Assembly: GCA_944393665.1 (NCBI GenBank) | Contig: CALYAX010000004.1 | Location: 13,479 to 77,478 of the forward strand | DNA from: an uncultured Alphaproteobacteria bacterium | GTDB lineage: Bacteria; Pseudomonadota; Alphaproteobacteria; RF32; CAG-239 | DNA length: 64,000 nt | Direction: 5' to 3' | Shown: positions 58,901 to 61,900 of the stretch, piece after piece | Layout: each line of letters opens with the position of its first letter | How positions within the stretch are numbered: the stretch's first letter is position 1 | Made by a program: the position numbers

Positions 58901-61900
58901 CCAGATCGGCGAAGTTTATAACGGCAAAGTAACCAACATCACCGATTACGGCGCATTTGTCGAACTCGAAGACGGCATTGAAGGTTTGGTTCACGTTTCG
59001 GAAATGAGCTGGACCCGCAAAAACGTTCACCCGGGCAAGATTGTTTCGACCTCTCAGGAAGTTGAAGTCAAGGTTCTGGAAGTTGATGCCGACAAACGCC
59101 GCATCTCCCTGGGCATTAAACAGTGCACCCCGAATCCCTGGGCTGCTTATGTTGAAGAGCACCCGGTCGGATCGGTTATCGAAGGCAAGATCAAGAACAT
59201 TACCGAGTTCGGCCTGTTTGTCGGTCTGTCTGATGAAATTGACGGCATGATTCACCTGTCTGACATCTCCTGGGACAAAGCCGGTGAAGAAGCTGTTAAA
59301 GACTACACCAAAGGCCAGGATATTCAGGCAAAAATCATCGATGTTGATGTTGAAAAAGAACGCATCAGCCTCGGTATCAAACAGCTGTCTGAAGATACGG
59401 TTGCCGCTGCCCTGGACGGATTCAAAAAAGGCGATGTGGTTAAAGCCACCGTTACCGCTATTGATGACAAAGGTGTCAGCGCTGATGTAAACGGCGCCGC
59501 CGCTTATATCAAAAAAGCCGACCTGTCCCGCGACAAAGCCGGCCAGAATCCGGAAAACTTCAAAGAAGGCGATGAGCTTGAAGCCAAAATCACCTCCGTT
59601 GACAAGAAAACCGGAAAACTGAACCTGTCGGTTAAGGCATTGGAAATTGAAGAAGAGAAAAAGGCTCTGGAAGAATACTCCTCCAGCACCGGCAACTCTG
59701 CTTTCGCCGATGCTCTCGGTGCCGCTTTGAAAAAGAACGCTTAATTTTAGCGTTTTGCCGAAAAGAAAACCTCCCGTAAACCGGGAGGTTTTTTTGTCTT
59801 AAATTCCCTCCGGCCAGACCGGGGAATCTTTTTTCTTGCATAATGTTTGGGCGGCTGGTATAGTTTTGTCCATAAAGACAAATTATTAAATATACGAATT
59901 ATGAAAGAAAGAATAATTACCTGCCAGGTTATTAAGATTATGACCTCAGGTGACAAAGTTTTGGTGAGATACCGCGAAACTGCCGATGATCCGGTGAGAG
60001 AAATATCGTTTGACTATTCTTTAGCGGGCGCCAGGCTGGAGGAATTAAAACGCAAATACCGTTTTAAACTTTCCCGCCCCACCATGATCCTGACCTATGT
60101 TCACGGAGAATTAATCCGGGTAAAATTTGACCAGGCGATTGAGTTCAACAGCAAAATGACGCAGATCCGAATCTGGGAAAATGAAGCTGCCGCCCTGCTG
60201 GCTGATTTCAGGGTTAAGTTTGACGCTTTTATTGAGCGGCAGGAGCCGGAAGCAGAGGAAAAGCTTTTGGTTAAAATCTACGGGTTGCCGCTGTTGCTCC
60301 GGTATTGGCCGCTGGCATTGCTGCATGTGTATAAAAACGATACGAATGTCCTGAAGAGGATAACCGTTTTGGTAAAACTGTTAAAAATCACAGACAGGTT
60401 ATATCCGAACCACGGCTTTACACCAAATAAATTCTCCAACCCTTTTCAGATGAATCCCCTTGAGGGGGTATCTTATGAATGGGACGAGGTTTTGCTTTAC
60501 AAAAGTCAGGACGCTCCGATAACCCATGGGATCTGGGAATGTTTTTCTGATGACAGTATCGTGCGGAAACAACTGGTTGAGGCCGGATTAACACTCATAG
60601 AAGGGGAAGATCCGCTGATAATCAATTATCTTGATTATCTTACCCGCCGGTTTAAATACGCTTATTTCTATGATGTCAAAGCCATGGAAAATAATCTTCA
60701 GATGGGCGGCGGCGGACTTTTATCAGCAGAGTTCCGCCTGCAAAAAGACGAGGACGAGCTGAAAAGCAATATCAGCAAAATGTACCTGTTCCGCCAGCAT
60801 TCTGACTTGTTAATAGAAAGGCGGCTTTCTCTTGAAGAGATAAACGGCCTGATAAGGATTATTAAATTGTAACTTAAACCTCCCGCAATCCGGGAGGTTT
60901 TTTGTCTTCCGGCCAATATCTTTTTTTCTTGCATAAAGGCCGGGCGGCTGGTATAAGTTTGTCCATAAAAGCAAAACTCCGGTTCTTAAAAAGGACCGGA
61001 GTTTTTTATTTTTTGCGGGGAAAGCGCTGCCGCAGCCTCCTGTTTCTGCGCGGCGGAAGCAGCCCCCTGTTTCTGCGCGGCGGAAGCAGCTCCCTATTTC
61101 TGCGCGGCGGAAGCAGCCTCCTATTTCTGCGCGGCGGAAACAGCTCCCTATTTCTGCGCGGCGGAATTAGAATAAGTGTAATGATAAAGCAAGTCGCGCT
61201 CATTGATGGTTTGGGCATCAACGGCTCCCTCGGGAACTGCCCAAAGAATTGAAAGCGGCCAGGTTATCAGGTTCAAAAAACCATAAGTATAATGGTTGCT
61301 GTCGCCGGCATTGCCGGAAGCCAGATAAAAGTTGCCGCCTCCGGGCAGCAGGTTGAGCGCGCCGGCGGCCGCCGGGCTGGCCGGGCGTTCCCACTGTGTC
61401 TGCGGGGTGTCAACGGTGATGCCCCGTCCCCTCAGGCTTTGCAGCCGGTCGCGTTCGTAAGCGTTCAAATGGGTGCAGGCGGATAAGCTTAAAAGCAAAA
61501 TGATGGTTGAAATAAAGTTTTTCATTATAGTCCTTCAGTTATTTAAAAAAACCAAAGGCCACTTTAATAAATAAAGTGACCGGGACGTTATCGACCATCC
61601 ACAAAGTATGGTATCTCTGCCTTTAAAACCGAAGTTTCTGAACATAACAAAGATCATCCCGGTCATGGCAACCGGGATATATTGACTGTGCAGGAAAATA
61701 TTAACCTGACAATCTGTCGACGCTATATCCGTGCGCCGTTTGTGGCGGGAATCGATAAATTCCCCGGCAGTTTCCTGCCGTAACTGCACGCCCCATGGCA
61801 TGCAGCTGCTTTCAGGTTAGCCGAATCTGCGCAGATTTGCAAGCACTATTTTTGCCGTGCCGGAGCGGCGGCGGGGGTGGGTGCCGTGCGGCGGGGCCGT

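What the first reader, a model, noticed from the sequence alone, without database searches (positions are those of the whole stretch)
59767..60969. Orphan gene bracketed by a duplicated terminator+promoter module downstream of rpsA
Seen in sequence: 59767-59876 and 60876-60969 are imperfect direct repeats, each with an AAACCTCCCG/CGGGAGGTTTT terminator, TCTTTTTT(T)CTTGCAT, GGGCGGCTGGTATA and TTTGTCCATAAA. They enclose exactly one AT-richer 323-aa gene with no recognisable motif. Inference: a cassette slot where genes enter or leave by recombination between the repeats, each inheriting a ready-made promoter, with no integrase nearby. Such single-gene cargo is often defensive.
Basis: partly seen in the sequence, partly recalled or inferred. 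Interest (0 to 1): 0.62.

Follow-up and report, generated by a model that had tools for sequence, protein, structure and literature searches.

The report
Swappable gene array behind rpsA
The two repeats are copies of the terminator-plus-promoter unit that precedes every gene of a small, fast-changing tandem gene array in an uncultured gut bacterium. The second copy is the leftover promoter of a neighbouring gene that this strain has deleted.

Summary
Window 59767-59882 and 60876-60975 are true direct repeats, each with a terminator hairpin, a sigma-70-like promoter with extended -10, and TTTGTCCATAAA. They occur only here in the genome and enclose one 323-aa gene.

- **Not an orphan.** The gene belongs to an unannotated family found in 77 of 283 genomes of the order. 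It has an OB-like N-domain and a helical domain with no PDB match.
- **A tandem array.** In close relatives the rpsA-downstream locus holds one or two family genes, each preceded by the same module. I found seven configurations.
- **Copy B is an orphaned promoter.** A conspecific contig (99.8% identical) still has a second gene, g2, behind it. The window carries a 996-bp microhomology deletion, and a second haplotype has a different junction.
- **The gene between A and B is a swapped block.** It is about 55% nt identical to a sister lineage, while rpsA, both modules and g2 are 82-100% identical. Its synonymous sites are near saturation.
- **No integrase.** Exchange is most likely by homologous recombination using the modules as homology arms.

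Protein function and promoter activity remain untested.

The parts
58062..59744 (+). rpsA (ribosomal protein S1), the conserved left flank of the array
   Evidence: Pfam S1 repeats. 99.1-99.5% aa identical in sister lineages L063 and L061.
59767..59797 (+). Module A, part 1: intrinsic terminator of rpsA (10-bp stem AAACCTCCCG/CGGGAGGTTT plus T-run)
   Evidence: I2. The same hairpin is present in the modules of L063 and L061.
59808..59834 (+). Module A, part 2: a second small hairpin plus T-run, on a roughly 30-nt insert specific to this species. Copy B keeps a decayed remnant (TCCGGCCA).
59836..59864 (+). Module A, part 3: promoter-like element. -35 TTGCAT (59836-59841), 17-nt spacer, TG at 59856-57, -10 TATAGT (59859-59864).
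   Evidence: Read. CTTGCA and GCTG.TATA are invariant across six modules of three lineages. Activity is not shown.
59865..59900 (+). Module A, part 4: conserved start region TTTGTCCATAAAGACAAA and an AT-rich leader without a Shine-Dalgarno sequence, containing AAATTATTAA (59880-59889)
   Evidence: The motif lies before family genes in other species and genera.
59901..60872 (+). Slot-1 gene ('cargo'), 323 aa. Soluble, with an OB-like beta-barrel (residues 1-83) and a helical domain with no PDB match.
60876..60906 (+). Module B, part 1: intrinsic terminator of the slot-1 gene
   Evidence: Orthologous to module 2 of L063, with identical upstream context TATTAAATTGTAACTTAAACCTCCCG.
60929..60957 (+). 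Module B, part 2: orphaned promoter. -35 TTGCAT (60929-60934), 17-nt spacer, TG, -10 TATAAG (60952-60957).
   Evidence: In conspecific contig L097 this promoter is followed by the full leader and gene g2.
60966..60972 (+). Deletion junction, between 60970 and 60971. 996 bp (the rest of the leader plus g2) are missing relative to L097. The junction lies inside the imperfect repeat ATAAA(A)[AG]CAAA.
   Evidence: Independent support comes from loose ends in run X7.
60973..61011 (.). Bidirectional terminator. It ends the convergent lipoprotein gene and, in g2-bearing strains, g2.
   Evidence: (I4).
61148..61525 (-). Convergent 125-aa lipoprotein gene, the right flank of the array in this species
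   Evidence: 81% aa identical in L063.

Best explanation
The repeats are two copies of the regulatory module that stands before every gene of a tandem array of paralogous genes of about 320 aa. The array lies between rpsA and the lipoprotein/TP/dnaK genes in one clade of uncultured gut Alphaproteobacteria. The module consists of the intrinsic terminator of the preceding gene, a sigma-70-type promoter with extended -10, and an AT-rich leader without a Shine-Dalgarno sequence.

Shown here:
- Copy A precedes the only array gene left in this genome.
- Copy B is that gene's terminator plus the promoter of a second array gene, g2. A conspecific strain still has g2. This strain lost it through a 996-bp deletion between short imperfect repeats.
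- Among close relatives the array differs in gene number and identity.
- The slot-1 gene is a sharply bounded block of ancient divergence between conserved modules.

Inferred:
- The modules, together with the conserved first codons and last ~25-40 nt of the gene, act as homology arms for ordinary homologous recombination. This would cover allele replacement, gain or loss of gene-plus-module units by module-module crossover, and gene conversion that homogenises modules within a genome. No site-specific recombinase is needed.
- The promoter of B now makes at most a roughly 45-nt run-off into the next terminator and is most likely a relic.
- The protein is a soluble OB-fold protein, possibly nucleic-acid binding. 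Its deep allele classes suggest a role in some conflict (phage, plasmid or toxin), but this is not shown.
For: - **Repeats:** real and unique in the genome.
- **L063** (rpsA 96% nt): module-g1-module-g2. **L061** (rpsA 93% nt): module-gA-module-gB. Modules within each genome are 96-97% identical. All array genes are homologous.
- **L097:** 99.8% identical to window 60483-60975, then continues through the leader and a 323-aa g2 (86% aa identical to L063 g2), and rejoins the window at 60968. Run X7 shows both junctions independently.
- **Two junction types:** CATAAAAGCAAAACTCC in the window and CATAAAAACAAACTCC in L065/L067 and runs X6, X8 and X11. The mismatch tree is (L065,(window,L097)).
- **L096** has one module and only gB where L061 has module-gA-module-gB. 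The overlap of the two alignments falls in the module.
- **L098** has a degenerate second module followed by a 23-codon remnant. **L099** has a short g2-like gene in slot 1.
- **Sliding identity, window species vs L063:** rpsA 0.94-1.00; module A 0.82 outside the window-specific insert; slot-1 CDS 0.42-0.70; last 25 nt of the CDS plus module B 0.92 outside its indel; g2 0.76-0.94.
- **Four-fold-site differences at conserved codons:** 0.63 in slot 1, 0.13-0.41 in the flanks, 0.18 in g2.
- **Modules:** 94% identical within a genome and 69-82% between genomes. A and B of the window share a lineage-specific insert.
- **Recombinases:** only two tyrosine recombinases in the genome, both on other contigs.
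Against: - No transcript data exist, so promoter and terminator activity are inferred from sequence and conservation only.
- The consensus scanner did not call the promoter, because the -35 matches only 3 of 6 positions.
- The direction of events (loss vs gain of g2 and of gA) rests on parsimony with few haplotypes.
- The two junction types could also differ by two point changes rather than by independent deletions.
- Window A and B are only about 80% identical, so recent gene conversion is not evident in this genome.
- No A x B recombinant or circle was seen in eight runs, but those are assembled contigs that hide rare variants.
- The donors of the divergent slot-1 alleles were not found.
Confidence: 0.8

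Rival explanations
1. This would be an integron-like cassette slot into which unrelated single genes enter and leave as units by recombination between copy A and copy B. The present cargo would be a foreign, probably defensive, insert.
For: The locus content varies among relatives. A unit flanked by direct-repeat modules is present or absent in L061 vs L096. Each gene has its own promoter copy. The cargo is somewhat AT-richer than its neighbours.
Against: All occupants belong to one protein family. The same leader motif precedes family genes at other loci and in other genera, so the module belongs to the gene, not to the site. Copy B is explained by the g2 deletion. The cargo is fixed in all 13 conspecific contigs and no A x B junction was seen. 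There is no PADLOC hit. No integrase or attC-like core is present.
Confidence: 0.1
2. In-situ diversifying selection only. The slot-1 gene has always been vertically inherited and simply evolves very fast. The repeats would be a passive relic of an old tandem duplication with no role in exchange.
For: dN of slot 1 is 0.46-0.52, against 0.002-0.12 in the flanks. The family is very divergent overall, with 51 clusters at 50% identity.
Against: Synonymous four-fold sites at conserved residues are also near saturation (0.63 vs 0.13-0.41), which selection on the protein does not explain. The divergence starts at the start codon and stops 25 nt before the stop codon. The adjacent paralogue g2 evolves at flank rate (86% aa identity, four-fold difference 0.18). 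Unit gain or loss has its breakpoints in the modules.
Confidence: 0.1
3. Copy B is not a relic. It would be kept as the promoter of a small RNA of about 45-50 nt, made of the conserved start region plus the terminator hairpin 60973-61005.
For: The promoter part of B is 100% conserved among conspecific g2-less contigs. The predicted run-off folds into a stable hairpin of -22.3 kcal/mol.
Against: The contigs are so closely related (98-100%) that this conservation is uninformative. The hairpin is the shared terminator of the convergent gene. There is no Rfam match other than sub-threshold terminator-like hits. Two different junction sequences change the 5' part of the putative RNA. No RNA data exist.
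Confidence: 0.07
4. The repeat is a mobile element, such as a miniature inverted-repeat or REP-like element, or a chance or assembly artefact.
For: Each copy contains a palindromic hairpin.
Against: There are only two copies in the genome, both at this locus. There are no terminal inverted repeats or target duplications. Orthologous copies sit at the same positions in three lineages. The arrangement is reproduced in 13 independent assemblies. No shuffle reached the observed match count.
Confidence: 0.02

Closest known systems
Recombinase-associated acquired interbacterial defence arrays (rAID-1) of gut Bacteroidales (bioRxiv 10.1101/471110)
   Same: Arrays of same-strand genes in gut bacteria separated by repetitive intergenic sequences. 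Content varies between strains, and members are rapidly evolving or orphan.
   Different: rAID-1 arrays carry a XerD-family recombinase, reach up to 31 genes, and contain homologues of T6SS immunity genes. Here there is no recombinase, only one or two genes, a single unannotated family, and no immunity-family hit. The repeat is a terminator plus promoter.
Integron gene-cassette arrays
   Same: Tandem single-gene units are bounded by repeated imperfect palindromes, and content differs between close relatives.
   Different: There is no IntI and no attC architecture or GTTRRRY core in the module (read). Integron cassettes are typically promoterless, whereas every gene here has its own promoter-like module. 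All genes here are homologous.
Bacterial multigene families with conserved 5' regions that turn over by homologous recombination, such as the Mycoplasma vlp/vsp lipoprotein families (from my own knowledge, not tested here)
   Same: Tandem paralogues combine highly conserved promoter and leader regions with very divergent coding bodies. Copy number differs between strains. The repeats evolve in concert.
   Different: Those families encode surface lipoproteins with phase-variable promoters. These proteins are soluble and cytoplasmic. No phase-variation tract lies in the promoter spacer.
Ancient allele classes held at one locus between conserved flanks, for example the dimorphic surface-antigen alleles reviewed in PMC10919680 (abstract only)
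   Same: A sharply bounded block of deep divergence, including at synonymous sites, lies between conserved flanks.
   Different: The organisms and protein types are different. Here the flanks are duplicated regulatory modules, and loss of neighbouring units is frequent.

Membership tests
Integron cassette array | Adjacent IntI-type tyrosine recombinase | tested here: not met
   PF00589 search of the whole genome gave two hits, on contigs C1 and C13. None is on C4, where the window lies.
Integron cassette array | attC site (imperfect palindrome with a GTTRRRY core) at each cassette boundary | tested here: not met
   The repeat is a simple 10-bp-stem hairpin plus T-run. Neither module contains GTTRRRY (read).
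Integron cassette array | Promoterless cassettes expressed from a common Pc promoter | tested here: not met
   Each gene is preceded by its own conserved -35/extended -10 element. Activity itself was not measured.
rAID-1-type immunity array | XerD-family recombinase at the array edge | tested here: not met
   and the gene lists.
rAID-1-type immunity array | Repetitive intergenic sequences between array genes | tested here: met
rAID-1-type immunity array | Genes homologous to known toxin-immunity families | tested here: inconclusive
   No Pfam, NCBIfam or PADLOC hit and no structural match. Absence of a hit does not exclude an undescribed immunity family.
Tandem paralogue array evolving by homologous recombination | Array genes are homologous to each other | tested here: met
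   Pairwise BLASTP and alignment: 43-48% among slot-1 alleles, 31-35% to gA, and weak but significant similarity to g2. One profile finds them all.
Tandem paralogue array evolving by homologous recombination | Copy-number differences between close relatives with breakpoints in the repeats | tested here: met
   L061 (module-gA-module-gB) vs L096 (module-gB). Both alignments overlap in the single module of L096.
Tandem paralogue array evolving by homologous recombination | Repeats more alike within a genome than between genomes (concerted evolution) | tested here: met
   94% within L063 and within L061, against 69-82% between genomes. Window A and B are only 80% identical but share a lineage-specific insert.
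Intrinsic (rho-independent) terminator | GC-rich hairpin followed by a T-run, placed directly after a stop codon | tested here: met
   Copy B's hairpin (60876-60900) was called by the scan. Copy A's hairpin appears as inverted repeat I2. Both are followed by T-runs. Termination itself was not measured.
Sigma-70 promoter with extended -10 | -35 and -10 hexamers at 17-nt spacing with TGn, and transcription starting downstream | tested here: inconclusive
   The sequence fits: TTGCAT, 17 nt, TGgTATAGT/TATAAG. It is conserved in six modules. The -35 matches only 3 of 6 positions, so the scanner missed it. No RNA runs are available.
Known anti-phage defence systems (PADLOC) | Match to a defence-protein model | tested here: not met
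   None of the five array proteins matched at E <= 0.1.

The most novel reading that the evidence does not exclude
The array encodes a new single-protein conflict system, either anti-phage/anti-plasmid defence or immunity to a toxin, built on an OB-fold sensor and a helical domain of unseen fold. Its deeply diverged allele classes would be maintained by balancing selection and exchanged between lineages without any recombinase. Each gene's own terminator-promoter module would serve as a portable homology arm, giving an integrase-free analogue of a gene cassette.
Probability: 0.2. Interest if true: 0.7.

Novelty: new variant of a known kind. Interest (0 to 1): 0.45.

Why it matters
This locus shows, with actual alternative haplotypes, how gene content beside a core gene (rpsA) turns over in a small-genome gut bacterium that has never been cultured.
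- Whole genes are swapped, gained and lost using nothing but their own duplicated regulatory regions as recombination substrates.
- Orphan promoters are left behind when a gene is deleted.
- The work defines an unannotated protein family with a confident predicted structure (pLDDT 90.6) and a helical domain with no PDB match. One subfamily carries allele classes much older than the surrounding genome, a pattern usually tied to biological conflict.
- If the function were found, the locus would be a compact natural system for studying balancing selection and recombinase-free cassette exchange.

Tried and rejected
- **Species representatives.** rpsA-downstream regions of 14 same-genus representatives are too divergent (72-79% nt in the rpsA 3' end) and have unrelated downstream genes. 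They say nothing about empty sites.
- **Family and structure searches.** Pfam, PHROGs, PADLOC and NCBIfam gave no hits. A profile search of PDB sequences returned nothing below E = 0.04. Foldseek against PDB (two models) and BFVD gave only weak OB-fold hits to the N-domain, with E >= 0.03.
- **Rfam on 57000-64000.** Only sub-threshold terminator-like hits.
- **RNA runs.** None are listed for this stretch.
- **A x B deletion joints or circles.** None were seen in eight metagenome runs, but these are contigs only.
- **Origin of the N-domain from rpsA S1 repeats.** No sequence similarity, E = 0.5.
- **Earlier findings by sequence.** Nothing returned.
- **g2's last codons as a fossil of a third module.** I considered this because GGTATAGcctGGAATAAA resembles the -10 region. 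I rejected it because the C-terminus (Y-S/T/N-L-R/K/E) is conserved in family members of other genera.

Full report
**1. Observation**

Window 59767-59794 and 60876-60903 are 93% identical over 28 nt. Window 59829-59882 and 60922-60975 are 85% identical over 54 nt. The two blocks are separated by a 16-nt indel. GGGCGGCTGGTATA occurs exactly twice in the window; three matches were found at up to two mismatches, with 0.32 expected, and no shuffle reached three. The 126-nt module has only these two copies in the 1.74-Mb genome. Thirteen independent assemblies of the species reproduce the arrangement.

**2. Anatomy of the module (read)**

Copy A has five parts:
- a 10-bp-stem hairpin plus T-run directly after the rpsA stop codon (59767-59797);
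- a second small hairpin plus T-run on an insert specific to this species (59808-59834);
- -35 TTGCAT (59836-59841), a 17-nt spacer, TG, and -10 TATAGT (59859-59864);
- a conserved start region, TTTGTCCATAAAGACAAA;
- an AT-rich leader with AAATTATTAA (59880-59889) and no Shine-Dalgarno sequence before the ATG at 59901.

Copy B has the hairpin (60876-60900), a decayed remnant of the insert, the same -35/spacer/TG/-10 (60929-60957) and TTTGTCCATAAAA. It then runs straight into the bidirectional terminator 60973-61005 of the convergent lipoprotein gene, so B drives no gene.

The consensus scanner did not list the promoter because the -35 matches TTGACA at only 3 of 6 positions. However, CTTGCA and GCTG.TATA..TTTGTC are invariant across six modules of three lineages. 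No RNA data exist for the stretch, so activity is inferred.

**3. The enclosed gene**

The ORF 59901-60872 encodes 323 aa. It has no transmembrane segment (maximum hydropathy 1.34), a balanced charge, and GC 0.44 against 0.47-0.48 for the genome and window.

It is not an orphan:
- A profile search of 1.84 billion representative proteins finds 51 clusters at 50% identity.
- Six-frame searches find the family in 9 of 56 species of the genus and in 77 of 283 genomes (11 of 24 genera) of the order.
- Genomes carry one to four matches, usually stand-alone genes in the contexts I inspected, with no conserved partner.

With a 41-sequence alignment AlphaFold gives pLDDT 90.6 and pTM 0.86. The model has an N-terminal beta-barrel (residues 1-83) and an all-helical domain. 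Foldseek finds only weak OB-fold matches to the barrel (E >= 0.15) and nothing for the helical domain. No family library recognises the protein.

**4. Copy B is the orphaned promoter of a deleted gene**

A public contig, L097, is 99.8% identical to window 60483-60975, which covers the cargo 3' half plus module B. It then continues with the rest of the leader (ACAAATTATTAAATTTACGCATTATG) and a 323-aa family gene, g2. It rejoins the window at 60968. The window therefore lacks 996 bp.

The junction lies between 60970 and 60971. It sits inside an imperfect repeat: ATAAAAACAAA in the leader and ATAAAGCAAAA at the g2 stop codon. An unrelated run (X7) shows both g2 junctions independently as loose ends.

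The sister lineage L063 has g2 at the same place with the same boundaries. Its g2 is 86% aa identical, which is flank-like divergence. Presence of g2 is therefore ancestral by parsimony.

A second haplotype of the species (L065 and L067, and runs X6, X8 and X11) has a different junction: CATAAAAACAAACTCC against CATAAAAGCAAAACTCC. Over 493 nt, L097 differs from the window by 1 mismatch and from L065 by 5. This gives the tree (L065,(window,L097)). g2 was thus probably lost twice. A single loss followed by two point changes at the junction is not excluded.

**5. The locus is a variable tandem array**

Among relatives with rpsA 86-100% nt identical I found seven configurations:

| Source | Arrangement after rpsA |
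|---|---|
| Window species | A-cargo-B(orphan) |
| L097 (conspecific) | cargo-B-g2 |
| L063 | module-g1-module-g2 |
| L061 | module-gA(245 aa)-module-gB |
| L096 | module-gB only |
| L099 | module-short g2-like gene |
| L098 | module-gene-degenerate module-23-codon remnant |

L096 is 90-92.5% identical to L061. It aligns to L061 on both sides of gA, and the two alignments overlap in its single module. That is the product expected from a crossover between the direct-repeat modules, or from the reverse event. All occupants are homologous.

**6. The gene between A and B is a replaced block**

I compared the window species (using L097 for g2) with L063. Identity in 50-nt windows is:
- 0.94-1.00 in rpsA;
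- 0.82 in module A, outside the window-specific insert;
- 0.42-0.70 from the start codon to 25 nt before the stop codon of the slot-1 gene;
- 0.92 in the last 25 nt plus module B, outside its indel;
- 0.76-0.94 in g2.

Flanking proteins are 81-99% identical, whereas the slot-1 protein is 48% identical to L063 and 43% to L061. I also looked only at codons whose amino acid is conserved. There, four-fold sites differ at 0.63 in slot 1, against 0.13-0.41 in the flanks and 0.18 in g2.

Selection on the protein cannot saturate synonymous sites. The slot-1 alleles are therefore much older than the surrounding DNA. This means either allele replacement by recombination or long-held polymorphism. Within the species the gene evolves like its flanks.

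**7. How exchange most likely works**

Modules are 94% identical within L063 and within L061, but 69-82% identical between genomes. The window's A and B share an insert absent from the other lineages. This indicates gene conversion or repeated crossover between modules. The genome has only two tyrosine recombinases, both on other contigs, and the module has no attC-like core.

The simplest mechanism is ordinary homologous recombination, using the modules and the conserved gene ends as arms. Occasional microhomology deletions then strand a promoter. This step is inferred, not shown.

**8. Rivals**

- The strict cassette-slot model (unrelated, foreign, defensive cargo excised by A x B recombination) is not supported. 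The occupants form one family. The leader motif travels with family genes at other loci and in other genera. The cargo is fixed in the species, and no A x B joint was seen.
- In-situ fast evolution alone fails on the synonymous-site test and on the sharp boundaries.
- An sRNA role for B cannot be excluded without RNA data.
- A mobile element or an artefact is excluded.

**9. Comparison with known systems and verdict**

The nearest described systems are the rAID-1 arrays of gut Bacteroidales, which have repetitive intergenic sequences but also a XerD-family recombinase and immunity genes (10.1101/471110). Integrons and bacterial multigene families with conserved 5' regions are also close. The defining recombinase and attC features were tested and are not met.

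I rate this a new variant of a known kind: a recombination-driven tandem paralogue locus, built from an undescribed protein family. The evolutionary anatomy is well supported. The protein's function and the activity of the promoters are open.

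Noticed in passing
window 61032-61166: A 27-nt tandem repeat that reiterates the last codons (SAAQK plus stop or Gln) of the convergent lipoprotein gene. Its copy number differs between conspecific contigs: 27- and 52-nt differences in L068/L069 and L065, and a 92-nt skip in runs X8 and X9.
   Followed up: partly
genome G000, e.g. C9:64921(+), C15:15783(-), C17:2758(+), C30:779(+), C42:3248(-); window 59880-59889: The leader motif AAATTATTAA lies 3-31 nt before the ATG and 25-35 nt after a promoter-like element. It also precedes about 15 other small hypothetical genes in this genome and family genes in other genera. 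It may be a shared translation or regulatory signal for genes without a Shine-Dalgarno sequence.
   Followed up: partly
L063 4510-4523, 5470-5483, 5588-5601; window 60850-60872: The last codons of slot-1 genes (TACGAATTATTAAATTG) closely resemble the leader and start region (TACGAATTATGAAA), matching at 13 of 14 positions. Gene ends and gene starts therefore share a short homology. I do not know whether this is chance in AT-rich sequence or a recombination substrate.
   Followed up: no
L085 (G059:C30) 8470-12134; L087 (G070:C16) 956-3516: In more distant species of the genus, family genes sit directly upstream of the thymidine-phosphorylase-like gene followed by dnaK. The family-TP-dnaK neighbourhood is therefore older than the linkage to rpsA.
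   Followed up: partly
window 61750-62000 vs L065; L067 beyond about window 61750: L065 has an indel of about 130 nt upstream of the TP gene. L067, which is otherwise conspecific, diverges completely from that point and carries other genes. This points to a second rearrangement hotspot at the leader-RNA region noted by an earlier finding.
   Followed up: no
L063 7404-7660: The spacer between the lipoprotein leader and the TP gene carries short tandem repeats of 26-33 nt (GGGGTGACAGAAAG...). These are absent from the window.
   Followed up: no
order-level hits (e.g. G255:C8, G263:C53, G243:C14): Many genomes also carry shorter family genes that match only the helical C-domain (profile positions about 106-323) or only the N-terminal half, often in tandem. 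The two domains therefore also occur separately.
   Followed up: no
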